A DNA stretch of 62,231 bases, the filler included, from Rhabdomonas costata (taxonomy: Eukaryota), in assembly GCA_019059605.1 (NCBI GenBank). It is 31 parts of 31 records of this genome, joined end to end, with 100 filler letters (N's around TTAATTAATTAA, not from the genome) between each part and the next. Parts side by side here need not be neighbours in the genome. Positions count along the whole stretch, not along the records: positions 28,174 to 30,069 come from JAHMHO010007472.1; 30 more parts are not named here. One strand, written 5' to 3'. How positions within the stretch are numbered: the first letter of the stretch is position 1; every line of letters starts with the position of its first letter. The position numbers and the translations under genes are program-made. The notes beneath the pieces were generated by a model. It ran no database searches. It saw only the letters and a list, made by a program, of their open reading frames with translations, and was not told the origin of the DNA. Positions 16,102-61,988 of this stretch are shown here, piece after piece.

Positions 16102-18012
16102 AGCGTATTTGATGGTGCTGGGTGGATTGGTGAAGCTTTCTGTGGTTCCGTTGTATGTGTGTGTGCAGGGTGTAGGTGTTGTGTGCAGGGTATTCGTTGG
16201 TCGGTGTGATCCCGTGCTGTGGTGTGGCTTTCATTGTGCTCTCTGGGTTGTGCCTGGTCAGTGGATTGTGGGTTTGGCATTCTCTTTCTCGTCAGGTCCG
16301 TGGGGTTAGTGTGGTGGATGTTCCGGTGCTGGTATTGGTCTGTGTTACGCCGGTGTTTGTGCTGAGTTGTGGTATTCCTGATGTGTCTGCTGTGGGTTCG
16401 TTGTGTGTTCTCGAAGTTCTTTCCTATCCGGCTTTGCACTCCCAAGATGGTATCCAAGTGTTTGTTGGCTTTGCTTCCTCGCGCGTATGTTCTTATTGTA
16501 TTCTTATGTAGGGTTATGCTGTAGGTGCAGGTGTAGTCGTAGTTTTAGCTGTAGTCATAGGGATTGGTGTTGTTGGTGCGTAGTGTGTCGGAGTCAACCA
16601 TGCTCTCTGTGCCTGTCTCTGTTGCTTTGGGTTGGTGTGCTTGCTGTTGGTCGGTCTCACGTTGGTCCTGTTGCTGTGCGTTGGGTTGGTTGGTGTCGTG
16701 TCGTGTGTCCTGTTGATCGGAGGGTTGGTGTCGGTGGTGGTGGTGGGATTGGCGTCGTTGGTGTCGGTGGTGTGTTGGCTGTGCTTGGTGTGTGCTGGTG
16801 CTGTGGCTGCTGTGGGTCTGGTGGTGGGTCAGGGTCTGGTGGTCTGGTGGGTTGTGGAGTCGGTGTTGTTGCTGTGGTGGTAGTGGGCTGTGGTGCTGTA
16901 GTGCTGTCAGGGTGTGAGGGGCTGTCAGGATCGGAGGGTTAGGATGTTGCTGGTTGGGTTTCTTGCTTCTGTGGTAGTAGCGTAGTGACCTGTTGTTAGT
17001 GCTGCTGTTGTGCTTGTAGGGTGGTGGTTGTGGCGATGTTGGAGGGTGGAGGGTGCGTGTTTGTTGGAGGGTGCGTGTGGTTCCTGCTGTAGTGTTGGGT
17101 ACGTGCTGTTGTTGTCCTGGTCTGTAGTGCTCTGTGTTGGAGTGAGGGTGAGTGAGGTGGGTTGGTGGCGGAGTGTGTCGAAGGGTGTGAGTGTTGTCTG
17201 TAGCGCTTCTGTAGTGGTGTCATGGTGAGTGTGGATGTTGGGCTGCTGGTGGTGAGTATGGAGGGGTTGTGTCAGGAATCAAGGGTGTCAGAGGGTATGA
17301 GTCAAGGGAACTCAGCATGACTCTAACATGACTCTCTACCTGAAGCATGAACTCACCCTCTATCGCGATGCCCTCTACTACGGATGGCTCGCTGACGGAC
17401 CCATCCTTCGTACTGTAGGGATAGAGTGTAAGGGTGAAGGCTGACATCCCCTCCCACCAGCTGAGCCCTTGACATCCACTTCACTGTTGGGGTATTCACC
17501 GTAGGGATAGTGGTGATGGTGTTGGAGTGGGGATGTCAGCCTTCCTACTCCTACTACGCTACGCTTCGTGACTCTATTCCTTCTACGGGCATGCCTCCTG
17601 ACGTCGACATGCCCATGTATTCCTATTCGCTGCGCTCATGCACTACTCCTACTTCGCGATGTCCACAGCGTGACCATCGCTACGTGACCAATGGAAAGTG
17701 TGAGCGTAAAGGCCCCGCAGGGTGAGAAGACGCTCCGGCGACGCTCTCACTACGTTCGTTACGCTTCGCTCCACTCACTACGTTCTAAAGTTGAACTCAA
17801 AGGGTGTATTCTTCTTGTCGGGATGTCCTTCACTGCGTTACGGCCATCCCTCCACTTGTATTCCTACTCGCTACGCTCGTGCGTACCGGTGTACGCTCAT
17901 GCTACGCCTTGTAAGGCGCTCGCTGTCGGTAAACAGGGAGCCCGGCTATCCATGAAACTGAGTGTGTTACAAGCCTCACAGACGTAATTTGCCCTTATTT
18001 AGCCACACAACA
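16102..18012 (-). mobile_element. Unclassified strand-skewed element, copy A: C/A-rich decayed ORF region (16102-17280) plus hairpin-rich non-coding region (17380-17910)
   Basis: Extreme G+T skew on +; repeated TCGCTNCGCTC / TCACTNCGTTC motifs and nested inverted repeats; same architecture as 28174-30069. Confidence 0.5.
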
Positions 18013-28173: not shown

Positions 28174-30069
28174 TGAGTCTCTGAGTTCAGTGTATGTGTG
28201 GGTATCTTGGGTCTTGGGTGTAGAAGTGGTAGTTTATGAGTAGGTCCAGGTGATGGCGTCTTGGAGTGCATCGTATCTTGGAATCTTGTGGTGTGGAGTT
28301 AGGGGTCAGGGTTTGGAATTTAGCGTCGGTATTTGGTTTCGGTTTTTGCATTCGGGTTCGTTTTTCGGTCTTCTTGTTTCCATGGGAGGTGTTGTATGGG
28401 GCTGGGTTTACGCGCATTGATTTGAGTACGAAAGGAACGCAACTGGTTGACCACTGGAACACTGGACTGGTGTCTTAGGCCCCGCTGGGAGCACACCAAG
28501 TGATGTGTGGTTAAGCCAGCTGATGGAAAGAGTCACCCTTAGCATCTTAGAGTACAGCGCTAAAGGCCACACTTAACCACTTCAACCCCAAGAGAGGAGT
28601 TCTTCGTGGCTTCGACATGACGGAGTATTGCTAATGGTTGTGTGAGCGAAACCGTGAAGCGGTGCAGCGATCCGGCATGAGTTGTAAGTGTAGGGTTAGT
28701 GGTTGAGAGAGTGTACCGGCTTATGCCTGGTAGTATTCATGTTCATGTTCCTCTCCTGGTCGCTGCGTCACTCCCTCCGCGATGCTCCGGTCGTTCCTTG
28801 CTCCTAGTCGACATTCACTTTTGTCACTGCGTTCCTCGTATTCATGTGTCCATTTCTTTAGATCACGTTGATGGTTCACACTTGACATTCGCGTTGTTCG
28901 TGTCTCCTGCTCACTCTTTTTGACGTCACATTCGCTACGCTCATGTTACTCTATCCACATGTACACTCACTGCGTTCGTGCTCCTTCAAGTCGCTGCGCT
29001 TCGCTCCGCCACTCTCCTTTCTTTTGATCACGTGTCGACTCTCAACATTCGCTGCGCTCATGTTTCGTGTCTCCTGTATTTAGAATGGTTGTATTCTGTC
29101 ACTCGTCGCTGCGCTCCTTCGTTCCTTGTAGTGGTATTCATGATGTCGGCATGTACTCCACTGCTTTACGGCCATTCCTCCTACTATCACCACTCATACT
29201 CTCTACGGTAGTGTTTGTGGGGCCCCTTGGTGTATGCTGGTCGTATACTCGTCACTACGTTCCTCGTATACTCCCTAAATGTGATTGTTCGTATGCTCCA
29301 CCGCTTACGCATACTCACTCTATACACCAAGACTCACTCGGTACCCTCTTGATTCTTGGGGGTAATGAGAGATGCATGCTACCCCTGCCGGGGGCTCTGG
29401 CGGTGTATGCTGGTCGTATACTCCATAAGAGTGATGATTCCATGCGCTCCACCGCCATAGGGCGCGTACGCGCATGCCACCTACCACATGCACGGGTGCA
29501 TGCAGGACCACCAGATACACCCAAGACCCACTCCCTATGGTCGTGATTCTTGGGAAATAAATGTTTGGATCTCCGGTGGTGCATGGCTTCCGTTGGGTCT
29601 TGTGTTGCTGCCTGTGTTGGGTTCCATGTTGGTGTTGCTTGCGGTATGTTTGGTGTTGCAGTGGGTTCATAGTGGTGTGGCTTCATGTGCTGTGATGGGT
29701 CGTGGGTGCGGGTATTTGGATATGAGGTTAGCCTTTGAGTTCGTGCGTAGGGGTTGGACAAGGATGGTGTGGTGCTTTGGATCAGGTGGGTTGGATATGT
29801 GGTAGTTTTGGATGCCAGGGCTAATTGCACGGTTGTGGTGGTGTGACTAGGGGAGCGGTTGATAGCTGGTACAGGGCAGTTTGGTGGTGGCTCGGTGTGG
29901 TATGTCCGTGGGGTGATGTGGGCGCAGTGGTCGGAGGTGCCTTGGGGGCTAGAGTTCTGTGTAGAAACAAGGCGTATGACACGCTTTCAAAATCTTTGGG
30001 CTGTGGTTGGTGGGCCATGTCGGTGGGTGGAGCGATGGGTTCGGCGAAGTACATCCAACCCCACCACAA
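28174..30069 (-). mobile_element. Unclassified strand-skewed element, copy B: C/A-rich ORF-like flanks around a hairpin-rich spacer (28470-29480)
   Basis: G+T skew on +; at least 7 TCGCTNCGCTC / TCACTNCGTTC-type motifs; 22-bp direct repeat at 29229 and 29402. Confidence 0.5.
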
Positions 30070-45852: not shown

Positions 45853-46535
45853 CTATGGTACAACGTCGAGGAAATAAAACAAGTCGGGGGAGGGGAGTGG
45901 CGGTGCAAGTAGTATGAAACGTTCTCAGTTACAGAGTCCGATGAATTCGGAAGGAAAGTGTGTGTGGAAGGGAGAACCGTTTTCAAACCGTTTTCTGGGT
46001 CGACGAAACTCTCCTTTCTTTTCAATACAAACCAGACGGGTTTCCTTTCGAACTACTCATACAGCCCGAATATTCCGCCTTTGTTTTGCAGAAAACCTGG
46101 ACATGCAAGTGGTACATGTTCCATCCTCCTGGGGACCCGGGGACCTCTTNNNNNNNNNNNNNNNNNNNNNNNNNNNNNNNNNNNNNNNNNNNNTTAATTA
46201 ATTAANNNNNNNNNNNNNNNNNNNNNNNNNNNNNNNNNNNNNNNNNNNNTTTTTTGTTTTCGTGTTTGTGTGGACAAGTGGGGAAACGGGGTGAGCAGAA
46301 ATGCGTGATTTTTAAATCCTGCACAACGGGCTTCTAGAATTGCCTTGACTTTTGTATACTTTCTTCCGCGACGTCATTTTCTCTTCAGACTTCCGTAACT
46401 CGTTTTTTTTAGTTTGAATTCACCATGCACCATACCCGATTCTAGATCGGGGATCAACTGCCTTTGCCTTAACATTTGACCATCTACAGCATGCGACATT
46501 TTTTTTTGCATAGGTGGCATTGTCTTCAACAACAA

Positions 46536-47613
46536 ATGTCTTGGGCCGGGCTCGTCTACTCTGGGTTCCCGCACAAGGATCACCCCGTAAACGCAGTTGC
46601 CATTCAAAAGGGGACGGTCACTGCCAGTGACGGCACAACAAAGCAATGCCACATCAACGTTTACGCCTTCTGGAATGGGTCCGACCCAACTCTCGAAATT
46701 AAGGAGAATGACCCCTGGCAGCCCTACCCTCCAGATGTAAGCGGCAGCATTGACCAAGCTGGTGAGGCCGATGTCGTCGACATTGGAAGAGGCTACGTCT
46801 TCAACAAGGGAGCTGGCTTTCAATACCCCAAGGATAACCCCCACAGAATTCGTTGGGTTCGGTGCTGCTCGATCTGTTGGCTGTGGAATGCGGGCGAGGT
46901 CAGGGATGAGAATTACACACCCTACGAAAAGGAAATGCAGTTGATTTTGGAGGAAGCGTTTGCCTCTGATAAGCCACATGCCGACCTGACGATTGCGGGC
47001 CAGGAGTACCGGGTCTTCTTTCGCCGTGCACCCATGGCCCAGGTGTGCCTCAGAGATCGCTCCCGCGTTCGGCATGTGCGCCGCATCGGCCCGAGGGTCC
47101 GGGGAATACGCCCTGTGCCCTATCCTGAGCACTGGGGTGGGTACGACCCCTCCAAATTTGTTTACGACCCCTCCAGCTCATTCCGCTCTTCCCCAACGGA
47201 GATGTCTTCGTCCGCATCCGAGTTCGTCTCGCTGGCTGCCGACCATGAAATCTTTCAGTGGATCCAGCGACTCCTCAACATGTGCATTGCGACGGGTGCC
47301 CATCGGAAGAAGTGCGGTGAGGTGTGGGCGGCAGACCCCAATGGCCGCCCACATCCGAAGAGCTTCCGGGTCAAGGCCGTTAGCCTCGTGAAGAACCGTC
47401 ACCTGTGGCTGCAATACCATGACCGCCGCCGCGAAATGGAGGAGCTCTACAAGGGACAATCTCTGGCATGCGATGCCCTCGCTGCGGCCCCGCTGCGCAC
47501 CTCCGGTGTTTCTGCTGCGGTTCCCGTGAACAGCGCTATCAACGAGTGCTGGCTCTTCCACGGGGCGGGCCCGATTAGCGAAGAACAGGACGCAATCACA
47601 CTGATCACCAGTG
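46536..47613 (+). CDS. Tandem-WWE plus PARP catalytic domain protein, first exon
   Basis: WWE-like segments (WQPYPPDVSGSIDQA; WLWNAG...YTPYEKEMQLILEEAF...YRVFF..MAQ....SRVRHVRR), then VKNRHLWLQY and INECWLFHG (catalytic His). Homology ends near 47613. Confidence 0.88.
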
Positions 47614-49136
47614 GCGAGGCTTTTTCGGAGTCTTCTCTCTTCTTGGACATGCAGGCGTTTTCCTATGGCTTGAGCGCGAGGTTTTCCTTTTCACTTGGGT
47701 TGAACAAATGTAGTAACTGTTTCTTTTCATGTCTGCCTCCAGGGATGGAAGTCTGAGCTGGGAGAGTAATTAGAGCGATTCTTTTCGTTTGCATGGGGTG
47801 TGGCGATCATCATTCCAGAAGTGTTATAGTTTTATGCGGAAGGCCATGTGAAGTGCGTGGTTTGCTTTGATGATGGACAACGTTAAACCCTCGTGACATT
47901 TGCTTGCTAGCTATATCGCAAACACCTCATCACTGAATAAACGAAGCTGGTGGGCGCACACGCTCGTGCAGCCTCGATTTGAAACAGTGGCTGCCTACAT
48001 AGTCACGCGTGTTTAGACGTCTGGTTCAGATGCAATAGTCTCACCGACGTCCTCCGAAAATTTACCCCAGAACGCAAGAAATGGTTGATCCACGATTCCT
48101 TCAAATACTCGCTCCTTTTCGTCGGTGGCACTTTTCAGTCATATGGATAACCACCCCCCCNNNNNNNNNNNNNNNNNNNNNNNNNNNNNNNNNNNNNNNN
48201 NNNNTTAATTAATTAANNNNNNNNNNNNNNNNNNNNNNNNNNNNNNNNNNNNNNNNNNNNGGGTTGTTTGACAGTTTTGGCCGCGTTACCGCTGTCACTA
48301 GTGAGGTCTACACCACCAGAAACCCAAACTGTTTGTCCTGTTTGTGCATCCGGATGTGGGAGTGGAGAATTTCCAATGGATTTGACGGACCTTGATGATT
48401 TTCCCCCAACTCCCGGAAAAATTGAGGAGCTGTGGAGCTGTGGAGAGCTGTGCATTACTCACCAAAATCACGCTAAAGGGCCTGTGCATCTGTGAAACCC
48501 ATGAAACAGACCTGGGTGCCTGTGCCAAAAAAGGGAGCCCTCCTCTTTTGGGGACTTGCTGTGTAAGCCTTTCCAGCGCGGAGCGTGTCTGCTGACGTTA
48601 CGTTGACATTTCGTGTGATGTCTTCACAGTACTGCGGAACCCTTCCTGTGGTTCAGACACAATCCACTGCGTCACTTCAGAGCGTGCGGGCTACCCCATC
48701 CCTTCCAAGGCCTTTGCTACCACTGTCCTGGAACTTCCCCACGACAGAAGTATTGCACGCTAAGCGGCCGCTGAGCTATTTTGTGGTCTTGGAGTTGAAC
48801 TAACCTCAGAACGGAATTATGTTGAAATGCGGTTGTCTGACTTTCGGTGGCCGGGAGGGGGAGCAAAATAGCACCCGGCTTTTAGGCTAAGAGATCTCCC
48901 CAGAGTGGTGATGGGTCTCTCTGCCGTATGGACTCCCTCGCTATCTCCCAGCCGTGTCGTCTTGCACGCTCTGCCTTCCGTGGCTTTTTTCTCCCGGTGG
49001 GTGAGGCGCTCTCGTGTGCGTGCGTTGGGGTGAGACAGTGATTGAGTGCGGCTGCTCAGGCCGCATCCCGAAATAAAATAGTTTAAATAGTGTTTTGCAG
49101 CCCTCCCTAGCCTCCCTCACACCTCTGTCGGTCCGG

Positions 49137-57909: not shown

Positions 57910-58340
57910 GTCCCTCCCTCACAGCAGACTGTTGACATGTCATGCACTCTCTTTATTCCTTTGGATTTCCTCGCACCGAAGCAGAGATTTCCTGTTTTTG
58001 CGCTTGAGCAACGAAGGGAGGGCGGGAAATAAAGGCAAAAAAAACGAGCTTGTGATGACTCGGTAACCTAAACAGTCATCGAAATCTCAGATCTTCCCTG
58101 CTGTTGGTTTGTGCCGTCAAGACCGCCGCCTTTGGAGAAGCATTTGCACTTTATCATCCTAGAAAAATGAGCCTCCATCGTCAGTCTTTTCTGAGAAGGA
58201 CCCCACAACACNNNNNNNNNNNNNNNNNNNNNNNNNNNNNNNNNNNNNNNNNNNNTTAATTAATTAANNNNNNNNNNNNNNNNNNNNNNNNNNNNNNNNN
58301 NNNNNNNNNNNGTGGTGGGTGTGTTTGGGTTGGGTGTGTG

Positions 58341-58372
58341 TTAGGGTTAGGGGTTAGGGGTTAGGGGTTAGG
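58341..58372 (+). repeat. Short telomere-like tract TTAGGG(TTAGGGG)3TTAGG
   Basis: Read directly near the contig start; the G-strand points into the contig. Confidence 0.75.
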
Positions 58373-60321
58373 TCCTAAGCAAACCCAAGGCTGATCTTGA
58401 CCAGCCAACGTAGCGTAGTCCCTGACCTAGTCCCCGACCTATAGTATGCCACAACCAAGCTGTCCCTATCTGCGGGGAAAGCAAGGGAAAAGGAGTGAAT
58501 TCAAATTGCCCCCCAGCATGACGCCGCCACGTTGTGCAAATCATTCGGAAAAATGGGTCGCCCACCACACACAACTTCAGTGCCCTTTCGCAACATAAGT
58601 GAGTCGGTGTATCTAATCTAGGACTGGCATGGGGGGTGGGGGGTGGGGCATATGGAGCAGGGTACCACATCGTTCCCCGCGCGAAAAAAAAAAACAGAGA
58701 CTCCCGCGGCGGCAGCGAGAGCAATGAGCTCCATTGTCCTGGGTAGATCCTTCAGATTAGAGTGGAGAACCAAAACCTACGCAACTTCACAAGAGCCCCT
58801 GCGGAGCAGACGTGGTGACAATCGAAACATTACAAATTGTGATGCAAGTTTTGCACGTTTTTGAGGCCAAACTAAACATAAGTAAACACCACACAACCCG
58901 AAAAAAACCTCACAGCCTCAGCTTCACACCATCCTGGAACCTCCGCTTCCCTCCAGTAAGGGCTCAAATCCGAACACATGTATCGCTCGTCACCAGTGGC
59001 AGTGAAGGAAGAAGAAAAAACAATGGGGGGATTCGTCCGTCCGATAGGTGGCCACCAATCAGGCAAGAGGGAGCAGGAAGCGCACACGCCTTGCGCAGGG
59101 TGGTCCGGTATTGGACCAAAAGCGAAAAAACTGGAACCGGGGGGAGGGGACAGTCTAGGGGAAGAGATGTGGCTCACAGCAACCCTCCCCGCACTGTGGC
59201 ACGGACCCCGCCAGCCGCGCCCACCAGCCAGACTCACTCACACCACAGCCGGGATCACCGGCCGTGCTGCCCCACACCTCGAGCCGCAAGGTTCCTGGCT
59301 TGTCCATTCTCTGGCTGCGGGAACCCACCATCAGGTCGGCGCAGCAGAAAAGCAGTATTTTCTTGACACAGGTAGATACATTCCACATGGCAGAGCGGAA
59401 CGATATCTTTTGCTTTTTTTTTGCCGGCTCAGATAAACAAAGTTATAGAAAGGCCAGGGAAACCCCAAGAAAAAAGGGGAGGGAGGCGGGAGGAATAGAA
59501 AAGCTTAGCCAAGACTTCGATACAAATCGCTGACAAACATCGCGGAGAGGGATGACGGGGGCGGACGGCGAAGGGCAGCCAACCCAAGGTGAGCACATGG
59601 GGAGGAACAAACAAAGAGAAAGTGTGGGCAGTAGAAAGATCACATGGCAGAGGTGCCGAGAAGATATCTATAGAAAGAGCTATCGAGCCAAGAGGGGTCG
59701 AGATCCTCGCAGAGTCAATGATAGCTGTAAAAATGGCAAGAAATAGAGAGGGGGGCAGGGAAAGGGTAAGTAGGGTAAGCGGGGGCCCAAGGCCACCTGT
59801 AGAAGAGTGGGAAAGAGCAACCGCCAAGGAGGGGCGAAGTCGAATTTCCGTCCTCAGCTGTAGAGGCCCACCTCAGAAGGGCGTGGGCATCCAACACCCT
59901 TGCCGACCGCAGTGCAGGAAGCCTGAACACCCGCTAAAAAGAAAGGGTAAGGTAGCAAGCCGCGGATATCCCTTGCAGTCAGTTTTCCATGTCATGCCCA
60001 ATATGCATCCGCAAAAACGGTCCGCGATGGAACCGCACCGTCTGTGAAAACAAAGGGCGGCCCCGCAGATGCTGTCAGTCCCTGCGCCAGCAGGAGGAAC
60101 TCGGCGGGGACCCAGCTGCTGAGCAGGCCAAGCATGCAACGAGTGTTAGAGAGAATAGAGAGTATTTACACGGAACGACTACAGAGCTCAAGAACCCGCA
60201 GACCTCAGGAAAACAAAAAACNNNNNNNNNNNNNNNNNNNNNNNNNNNNNNNNNNNNNNNNNNNNTTAATTAATTAANNNNNNNNNNNNNNNNNNNNNNN
60301 NNNNNNNNNNNNNNNNNNNNN

Positions 60322-61988
60322 TGTTGTGGTGAAGCTCGGTCAGCCCAGGGGGCAGGGAAGTCAAGTCCACCAGGCCGTAGAAGCGATTATGGCTGAGGTC
60401 CAAGTAAGTAAGAGTTGCCGGCAGGGAGGTCAAATCCACCGTGGCCTCGAAGTTGTTTTGTCTCAGCGAGAGTAAGGAGAGGTTCGGCGGTAGGGTGGAG
60501 AGGTTCAGGAACAGTGTTCTCGACGTGAAGCTGTTCATGGCGAGGTTGAGCTCGAGGAGAGACCTGGGAAGCCTGGCGGCATCAAAACCAGAAAAACCAG
60601 AGTACAGCTGGCAGTTTGCGAACCGGGCCACCTCAATCCCCGACGGGAGCGCAGAGATTTCGAAGAAGGACTGCAGGGCCGGGTTGCCGCTCAGATCCAG
60701 GAAGGTCAGGGTTAGTTCCGAGGAGCCGCCCCCAAAGTACCACAAAAACATGTTCGAGGAGAGATCCAGGTATCCCAGGGAGAGGGGAAGGGTGTTGAGA
60801 AGAAGATTGCCCTCAAAGGCGTTGTGGCTAAGGTCCAGCCGCTGCAGACCCTCGGGCATTCCCGAGAGATCCACTGTCCCAGAGAAGAAGTTCGTCGCCA
60901 GGCTAAGCGAGACCAAGAAAACGGGGAGGGTGCTGAAGTTCAGGGCCCCGTATAGCTTGCACTCGCTCAGGTCCAGGAGTTGCAGGAATGGGGGAAGCGT
61001 GGAAAGATCCACAGAGCCTTGAAGCCGCGGGTTTCCTCCTAATGAGAAGCTTCGGAGAGTCCTGGGGAGGTCTAAGAAGCTCACAAGGTTGATTTTGGAG
61101 TAGAAGTCGTTCCCGCTCAGGTCAAGCGCACGGAGTGGAAGAGTCGTCAGCGCTGCTATGGCGAGGTCAAACCTCCCGACACAGCCCATATGGAAAAGGT
61201 TCAGGCCTGTGACCCTGGCGCTCGAGGAACAGGTGACCCCAATCCACGCTCCTGTGCCGTCACAGGGCTCTGAACCAGGCAATAACCAGGAGGACAAGTC
61301 GCATTGCTGCACTTGCTGATAGAATTCCAGGAGGGCGTCCCGAGATGGACCTGAGAAAGAGAACACCGGATACAAAGACACGACACACTGACTCATTATG
61401 AAATCAATTATGTAGTGCAAAAGAATGGATGGTGAAACGAGTAGCCGGTGTCCACCCTCTTGGTGGCACTTCATTTTTTCAGAACTTGTGCCGCTGGTAT
61501 ACAGTCAGGTGAGGGTCAGCGTCCAAAGTCCGTCAGAACACCGAATGCAATGACGCACGAAACAGCAAGAAGTAGTGAGAGGAACGAGGGCGTTTCCTGC
61601 GCTTCTTTCCCTAACGCAGCGGAGGGCTAATCGTAGGTGCTTTCCCATATGTTTTCCCTTAAGCAACGGACTCCACACCCCACACCAGCGCACGACGTCT
61701 GCACTCTGGGGTCAGTAACGTTCTGGGAGTAAACCAGCACTGTCCACGGGACGGCGGTGATGAGGTCTGGTGTCATCACATCTTGGACGTTGAAGGCGAG
61801 GAAGTGGAGGGAGCCAAGCTCTACGCCAACCGTCCACCCCAGAGCTGGGGTGTGGTACAGGTACAGGTTCAGGTACGGAACGGTTTTTGGGTAGAACGGA
61901 CGGCCTTCATACATGCCCCCAACACGGTAAATACCGTTGATCTGGGTCATAGTCGCCCCGACACGGCCGCTCAGGGTGATGTTGCACA
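60322..61988 (-). CDS. GP46/PSA-2-like extracellular LRR protein (exon 61988-61686, small beta domain; exon from 61350, LRRNT cap plus LRRs, 3' truncated)
   Basis: RDALLEFY...W....EPC....WIGVTC cap followed by many G.vDLt.LP..L..LdLS.N.F repeats; phase-1 GT-AG junction in frame. Confidence 0.9.

What the first reader, a model, noticed from the sequence alone, without database searches (positions are those of the whole stretch)
28755..29275. Dense cluster of ssDNA-type hairpins (GNA triloops with tandem G.A steps) on the minus strand
Seen, reading the minus strand: 29243-29271 is GTATAC-GA-G-GA-AC-GTA-GT-GA-C-GA-GTATAC; 29044-29064 is AACAT-GA-GC-GCA-GC-GA-ATGTT; 28928-28946 is ACAT-GA-GC-GTA-GC-GA-ATGT; 28964-28980 is CAC-GA-AC-GCA-GT-GA-GTG. 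More occur near 28760, 28823, 28991 and 29105. The stems covary (GC/GC vs AC/GT, different outer arms) while the loop type and GA/GA steps are fixed. Known: C-GNA-G triloops, as in d(GCGAAGC), and sheared tandem G.A pairs are very stable in ssDNA and mark ssDNA origins and HUH/rolling-circle substrates. The plus strand would have unstable TC/TC mismatches. Inference: this is a structured ssDNA control region (origin or terminus) of an unclassified mobile element or extrachromosomal replicon.
Basis: partly seen in the sequence, partly recalled or inferred. Interest (0 to 1): 0.8.

Follow-up and report, generated by a model that had tools for sequence, protein, structure and literature searches.

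The report
Dispersed repeat built from ssDNA hairpins
The hairpin cluster is one part of a multi-kilobase, non-coding repeat, found at well over a hundred places in a protist genome, whose sequence keeps a fold that suits single-stranded DNA; it looks like a mobile element of an undescribed type, but the enzyme that moves it was not found.

Summary
Observation confirmed: six G·A-zipped C-GNA-G hairpins on the minus strand, none on plus; shuffles give 0.01. The cluster is not unique. It is the middle of a dispersed, polar, non-coding repeat family: 232 exact hits of a 17-mer versus 0 control. Stems covary and loops are DNA-type (153 GNA, 8 GNRA, 0 UNCG among 308 hairpins). The scan had already noted such arrays on other contigs of this genome; added here is the architecture. 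A repeated unit (hairpin H1, linker RCATYTA, hairpin H2, GGGGCCCC/H3) leads into tip arrays, further hairpins and long A/C-rich tails; in many copies the same unit returns inverted at the far end. Copies interrupt gypsy retroelements, so the family moved. Four resolved junctions fall at four different points; no target duplication was seen. No transposase lies beside it; Helitron-like RepHel–GIY-YIG genes exist in the genome but share no sequence with it. Best reading: non-autonomous element moved through ssDNA (0.5). It fails the tested hallmarks of Helitrons, bacterial SRM and REP/RAYT. Interest 0.55.

The parts
29560..30069 (-). A/C-rich, T-poor stretch upstream of the modules; resembles the family's tails in composition (tandem or nested neighbour, not resolved)
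   Evidence: A+C 0.71, T 0.14; only 29562-29674 matches another element contig
29520..29554 (-). H3-type hairpin, the 5'-most recognisable module
29412..29476 (-). First unit: H1 (29436-29476), then a worn linker and an H2 that lacks its tip (29412-29431)
   Evidence: read by eye against other units
29327..29360 (-). H3-type hairpin between the two units
29287..29318 (-). Second unit, hairpin H1 (GT-GA-stem-GTA ... GGA-stem-GA-AC)
   Evidence: family arm covariation 175 of 252 WC versus 94 shuffled
29274..29282 (-). Conserved linker ACATTTA running into the GG base of H2; candidate recognition site
   Evidence: linker-H2 pattern 99 hits versus 7 control; RCATYTAGSGAG 241 versus 51
29239..29275 (-).
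   Evidence: family arm covariation 386 of 456 WC versus 231 shuffled
29188..29226 (-). GGGGCCCC (29219-29226) and hairpin H3
28755..29120 (-). Tip array: G·A ladders at 29103-29120, 29034-29074, 28964-28980, 28925-28949, 28823-28837; triple triloop near 28990-29009; end module 28758-28796; CGTGATC motif at 29024 and 28859
28707..28738 (+). H1-type hairpin in the opposite orientation, just past the array
   Evidence: similar stretch in L003 (82%) and L011 (69%)
28495..28701 (-). Post-array region with the M3-like motif (28606-28616), shared with other copies
   Evidence: matches to L011, L163, L141
28174..28420 (-). Start of the 'P-type' A/C-rich tail, cut by the contig end
   Evidence: A+C 0.75; 28286-28386 matches tails of 8 other contigs
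16102..17878 (-). Second family member on another contig of the window: four tips (17627-17878), hairpin 17378-17409, A/C-rich tail with the AAGAACATACGCGCG landmark (16480-16494)

Best explanation
The region is part of a non-autonomous mobile DNA family whose copies pass through a single-stranded DNA stage. SHOWN: the family is dispersed, non-coding in all contigs sampled, polar, modular, and interrupts other repeats; its stems covary while G·A tandems, GNA/GNA inner loops and GNA triloops stay fixed; the H1-linker-H2-H3 unit occurs at the front on one strand and often inverted behind the tail. INFERRED: these folds form only when the strand is displaced and do not extrude from duplex DNA; they protect, prime or are read by a nicking enzyme, with the conserved linker plus H2 as the likeliest recognition site; ragged ends reflect one-ended or microhomology-finished insertion, or later deletion. 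GUESSED: the enzyme is a host-genome HUH or GIY-YIG protein, the Helitron-like RepHel-GIY-YIG family being the only abundant candidate found.
For: Dispersal: 232 versus 0, 99 versus 7, 58 versus 5. Selection on the fold: 368 of 392 tips WC-concordant, 16 G·T, 8 A·C; H2 and H1 arm shuffles. DNA-type loops: 153 GNA, 8 GNRA, 0 UNCG of 308 hairpins; reversed control 18 hairpins; only GNA triloops form the DNA mini-hairpin (PMC13037366, passages). Mobility: gypsy copies without the insert place four junctions. One internal region has copies 96-99% identical. Module order.
Against: No partner enzyme is linked: 24 Helitron/GIY-YIG loci (49,937 bases) and 12 other enzyme loci share nothing with element contigs except one chance 36-mer. 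Only 1 of 4 resolved junctions lies at the linker, and the excess of breakpoints there is weak (7 of 73 within 10 nt, 28 within 11-120 nt). No target duplication in 27 bounded blocks, with fuzzy ends. No full-length copy was seen; the architecture is pieced together from contigs under 6 kb. No direct evidence of ssDNA.
Confidence: 0.5

Rival explanations
1. The family is an extrachromosomal replicon (linear plasmid, virus-like or organelle DNA) with hairpin-packed ends or origins on both strands; the nuclear copies are passively captured fragments.
For: Ragged ends at both sides and possible short microhomology at one junction; unit present on both strands at opposite ends; GCA/GTA loops closed by sheared G·A resemble Streptomyces telomeres (PMC4513846, passages); tips occur in a 2,389-bp viral contig with a helicase-domain ORF.
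Against: No replicon gene beside any copy; the 3 pPolB loci carry no tips; copies are highly divergent and form subfamilies, unlike one resident replicon; in the inferred layout the folded units lie at the 5' side of each strand, whereas Streptomyces hairpins are on 3' overhangs.
Confidence: 0.2
2. It is a chromosomal structural repeat (centromeric or subtelomeric) whose purine strand folds back when transiently unwound; dispersal is secondary.
Against: Tandem Repeats Finder reports nothing in this contig; no array of three or more TTAGGG/TTTAGGG in 195 element contigs; copies sit in gypsy coding DNA and in an intron-like position.
Confidence: 0.12
3. The fold works as RNA in a non-autonomous retroelement (Penelope-like or LINE-dependent), which would explain 5' truncation and head-to-head inversions.
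For: Variable 5' ends, inverted segments, A-rich sense-like strand; tandem GA and GUA/GAA loops are also RNA motifs (own knowledge).
Against: GNA triloops outnumber GNRA 153 to 8 and UNCG is absent; no Rfam match; no poly(A) end or target duplication seen; 30 RT loci carry no tips; the GIY-YIG hits inspected belong to Helitron-like ORFs, not RT ORFs.
Confidence: 0.1
4. It is a Foldback/MULE-like cut-and-paste element with long modular inverted repeats, and the G·A design serves only transposase binding or safe passage through replication.
For: Tandem units at both ends in inverted orientation, as recalled for Foldback elements.
Against: No fixed terminus in 4 resolved junctions and no target duplication; duplex-binding transposases give no reason for compensatory stem changes. 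DDE families were not searched.
Confidence: 0.08

Closest known systems
DNA mini-hairpins d(GCGNAGC) and their natural sites (phage G4/St-1/alpha3 origins, ssiA, N4 promoter); PMC13037366, passages read
   Same: C-GNA-G triloop on short G-C stems (138 of 308 hairpins).
   Different: Here the tips cap long ladders of tandem G·A pairs, occur in arrays within a multi-kb repeat, and favour GCA and GTA over the more stable GAA.
Neisseria NTS/dRS3 and Ssn-related motifs with the GIY-YIG ssDNA nuclease SsnA; PMC11893778, passages read
   Same: Dispersed one-strand hairpin repeats with variable tips and a conserved leader; a precedent for a GIY-YIG enzyme cutting ssDNA beside a hairpin.
   Different: The SRM consensus has 0 hits in 195 element contigs; no small GIY-YIG gene is flanked by these hairpins; the element is far longer and eukaryotic.
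Bacterial REP/BIME/REPIN with RAYT (TnpA-REP) (features recalled; lead from e1-7141160)
   Same: Modular hairpin units in tandem and head-to-head pairs.
   Different: No Y1_Tnp or REP_Tyr_transpos match in this incomplete assembly; no 5' GTAG tag on the units; long A/C-rich tails.
Helitron-like elements HLE1 and HLE2; PMC11417382 and PMC13085455, passages read
   Same: ssDNA transposition, no target duplication, ORF-less derivatives rich in internal repeats; the genome holds RepHel genes, some fused to GIY-YIG.
   Different: No 5'-TC, CTRR or T|T junction at the four resolved junctions; the inverted unit is about 150 nt, not 12-17 nt; no shared sequence with the local Helitron loci.
Streptomyces linear-replicon telomeres and autonomous parvovirus hairpin ends; PMC4513846, passages read
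   Same: Tightly packed palindromes with GCA loops closed by sheared G·A pairs.
   Different: No terminal protein, pPolB or Rep gene is linked; copies are chromosomal insertions at many sites.

Membership tests
DNA mini-hairpin (GNA triloop) motif | C-GNA-G loop on a G-C stem | tested here: met
   6 in the region; 138 of 308 family hairpins. Folding itself is predicted from sequence, not measured.
HLE1 (canonical Helitron) | 5'-TC start, 3' hairpin plus CTRR, insertion between A and T | tested here: inconclusive
   None of 4 resolved junctions shows these, but they may be truncation points; true termini were not established.
HLE2 (Helitron2/Helentron) | 12-17-nt terminal inverted repeats and insertion between T and T | tested here: not met
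   Inverted unit is about 150 nt with tandem copies; junctions read G|A, C|C and others, not T|T.
HLE1/HLE2 | Ends shared with an autonomous RepHel element | tested here: not met
   24 Helitron/GIY-YIG loci share no sequence with 195 element contigs; these loci rarely include the transposon ends, so the test is weak.
SRM/NTS-Ssn system | SRM degenerate consensus | tested here: not met
   0 hits in 321,102 bases.
SRM/NTS-Ssn system | Small GIY-YIG gene flanked by the hairpins | tested here: not met
   12 GIY-YIG loci carry no tip or linker.
REP/REPIN-RAYT | Y1 HUH transposase in the genome next to the repeats | tested here: not met
   0 matches for PF01797 and NF047646, controls rang; assembly incomplete.
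Linear replicon or parvovirus-type telomere | Position at a free DNA end with linked replication gene | not testable with these tools
   No reads were available; 3 pPolB loci have no tips; Viral_Rep 0 but its control was silent.
Penelope-like retroelement | RT plus GIY-YIG ORF, or hammerhead ribozyme in the repeat | tested here: not met
   Rfam 0 hits in the window; 30 of 150 listed RT loci examined, no tips; other RT loci not examined.
Foldback/MULE-type TIR transposon | Fixed termini with target-site duplication | tested here: inconclusive
   No duplication in 27 bounded blocks with fuzzy ends; DDE families not searched.
Plain satellite | Head-to-tail array of one unit | tested here: not met
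   No TRF row in 28174-30069.

The most novel reading that the evidence does not exclude
A eukaryotic class of multi-kilobase non-autonomous elements encoded almost wholly as ssDNA architecture: each strand starts with tandem G·A-zipped H1-linker-H2-H3 units that a GIY-YIG or HUH enzyme (possibly the Helitron-like RepHel-GIY-YIG fusion) nicks at the RCATYTA linker, a nuclear counterpart of the bacterial Ssn/REP systems.
Probability: 0.2. Interest if true: 0.85.

Novelty: new variant of a known kind. Interest (0 to 1): 0.55.

Why it matters
Sheared G·A DNA structures are known mostly from oligonucleotide work and a few small origins and telomeres. This family gives hundreds of natural, covarying examples of three G·A motifs used together, which is comparative evidence that they fold in cells. 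If an enzyme that reads them is found, it would be a new eukaryotic ssDNA-mobility system and possibly a structure-guided ssDNA nuclease. If none exists, it is still an undescribed protist repeat that annotators should mask.

Tried and rejected
Nearest-neighbour folding gave no signal. Rfam: 0. Pfam on 40 window ORFs and on 147 of 199 ORFs from element contigs: only host or gypsy domains. Six-frame self-comparison of element contigs gave no protein-like conserved frame. Enzyme searches in G000: Helitron_like_N 15 places, GIY-YIG 12, tyrosine recombinase 2, Y1_Tnp 0, RVT_1 150 scored of 490 candidates, Viral_Rep 0 (control silent), pPolB 3, TnpB 3, RAYT 0; none of the loci examined is linked. 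Walking out from two Helitron-like ORFs gave one further contig, without modules. The AAGAACATACGCGCG motif, first taken for the 3' end, is an internal landmark. The idea of a precise end at the linker is only weakly supported. A resemblance of the linker's reverse strand to a relaxase nick site (recalled) was dropped: the stable fold is on the other strand. Outside the genome: linker-H2 gave 2 unrelated viral hits and 0 metagenome hits; a 25-mer ladder gave 5 metagenome hits, each with only 1-2 tips in the locus; plasmids gave no hit below E 2. An AT-rich flank is a broken gene of unknown kind. No read or RNA data were available, and the host lineage was not tested.

Full report
Setting. The window is a chain of 31 unrelated contigs of about 1.9 kb joined by N-linkers. 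The finding lies in 28174-30069, which is G000:C7472 of a 97-Mb eukaryotic assembly in 104,289 contigs. Earlier notes call the host a euglenid; I did not test that.

Observation. The four quoted hairpins are there letter for letter. Counting tandem GA/GA as a pair, six C-GNA-G hairpins lie on the minus strand of 28755-29275 and none on plus; 5000 shuffles give a mean of 0.010 and never more than one. Standard folding programs see nothing unusual, and Rfam has no match.

It is a family. The 621-base region matches 50 places among 40 of 86 candidates scored. The 17-mer GAGGARCGNAGYGACGA has 232 exact hits against 0 for the reversed control; 98 of the 100 listed hits have Watson-Crick-concordant stems by my reading of the list. 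In 195 element contigs, picked by these patterns, 368 of 392 tips are concordant, 16 are G·T and 8 are A·C, and neighbouring tips share a strand in 245 of 263 pairs. In 156 contigs a loop census finds 308 distinct G·A-containing hairpins against 18 in reversed sequence: 153 have GNA loops, 8 GNRA, none UNCG. Only GNA triloops form the DNA mini-hairpin, and the DNA form is markedly more stable than its RNA counterpart (PMC13037366, passages). Copies are related by descent, so these counts are not independent events; the point is that many different stem sequences keep pairing.

Architecture. The linker-H2 pattern has 99 hits against 7. H2 arms pair at 386 of 456 positions in 76 matches, against 231 with partners shuffled (maximum 275). 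H1 arms pair at 175 of 252 positions in 42 matches, against 94 (maximum 121), and many of the unpaired positions are themselves GA/GA tandems. Both counts include a few mis-registered matches. The finding's contig holds one worn and one intact unit. Downstream come tip arrays, further hairpins and long A/C-rich tails. One tail type carries an internal landmark with 58 hits against 5. The other ('P-type', which starts at the end of this contig) is followed by the same unit inverted in 8 of 11 contigs that I chose for G/T-rich context near a linker, and in L088, L299 and L080. A stricter automatic count over 16 tail zones gave 4 with forward modules before, 4 with inverted modules after and 3 with forward modules after, so the layout is common but not uniform. 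No contig holds a whole element. Some head-to-head inversions, such as the perfect fold-back in L099, could be amplification chimeras (own knowledge); I do not know how this DNA was prepared.

Mobility and ends. Four copies abut gypsy retroelement DNA for which insert-free copies exist. The junction is at the linker in L074 (with a nearby indel), inside H1 in L043 and L097 and upstream of the unit in L080. So the family has moved or been rearranged into younger or coeval repeats, but no fixed terminus is shown. Across 73 linkers, similarity to other copies ends within 10 nt upstream in 7 and within 11-120 nt in 28, a weak excess. No target duplication was seen in 27 bounded blocks, whose ends are fuzzy. 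A 137-nt fragment lies between exon-like stretches in L030 that read like a splicing-factor gene (name recalled, Pfam gave no hit). One internal non-coding region, from a sister subfamily, has six copies 96-99% identical, which suggests recent spread but could include alleles.

Partner enzyme. Of 147 ORFs from element contigs five hit Pfam, none a transposase. The genome has 15 Helitron_like_N and 12 GIY-YIG places, some in the same contigs, but 24 such loci share no sequence with element contigs apart from one chance 36-mer. Tyrosine recombinase, pPolB and TnpB loci carry no tips; 30 RT loci carry none; Y1 and RAYT transposases were not found. Short contigs limit all of these tests.

Elsewhere. 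The design is convergent. Paired tips occur in 11 viral stretches, among them two cassettes with Avd and RT genes and a 2,389-bp contig with a helicase-domain ORF. A 25-mer ladder recurs in 5 metagenome contigs as solitary hairpins. The linker-H2 unit was not found outside this genome.

Mechanism. Shown: a selected, one-strand, DNA-type fold in a dispersed non-coding family. Inferred: the strand is displaced during mobilisation or replication, the ladders fold, and a protein reads the linker-H2 junction, as SsnA cuts ssDNA beside its hairpin (PMC11893778, passages). Guessed: the protein is the RepHel-GIY-YIG fusion. I put 0.5 on a non-autonomous ssDNA-stage element, 0.2 on fragments of a free replicon, 0.12 on a structural chromosomal repeat, 0.1 on an RNA-stage retroelement and 0.08 on a Foldback-like element.

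Comparison and novelty. It works like bacterial SRM/REP repeats or hairpin telomeres but fails their tested hallmarks, and it lacks HLE2 ends (PMC11417382, passages). Six literature searches (listings and abstract starts) showed no description of such a repeat in a protist; a euglenid draft-genome paper has no occurrence of 'transpos' in its main text (PMC8219788, passages; supplements not read). The library lacks most subscription papers and I could not search Repbase or Dfam. The scan had noted the arrays on at least six other contigs; the unit, the polarity, the inverted far end and the junction tests are what this report adds. Verdict: real, new variant of a known kind, interest 0.55.

Noticed in passing
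G000:C86 (L064), C39, C6391, C31193, C12319, C1765, C5230: Helitron-like helicase ORFs ending in a GIY-YIG domain, in several divergent copies; already noted by the scan (e1-7140774, e1-7140762).
   Followed up: partly
window 16102-18012 (-): Second member of the same family, of the other tail type, on a different contig.
   Followed up: yes
L351-L353, L303-L305, L118: TnpB/Fanzor-like (3), pPolB (3) and tandem GIY-YIG hits, five of the first six on contigs of 26-29% GC: possibly endogenous virus-like DNA or contamination.
   Followed up: no
L244, L249 (viral contigs): G·A-zipped tips sit between the target gene and the avd gene of two diversity-generating-retroelement-like cassettes.
   Followed up: partly
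L354:about 4000 (metagenome contig): The same 25-mer ladder directly follows what reads as a tRNA gene in prokaryote-like DNA.
   Followed up: no
L035, L048, L068, L075, L092: Short hairpin blocks are followed by an AT-rich stretch, in several with ACGGAGTAGAGC-like words: another subfamily or a second repeat.
   Followed up: no
L050:1-1240: AT-rich, frameshifted gene starting a dozen bases from a hairpin array; kind unknown.
   Followed up: partly
window 58340-58372: (GTTAGGG) x 4.9, telomere-like, near a contig start.
   Followed up: no
window 46473-47756 (+) and 60266-61504 (-): Long ORFs with a WWE domain and leucine-rich repeats; ordinary host genes.
   Followed up: partly
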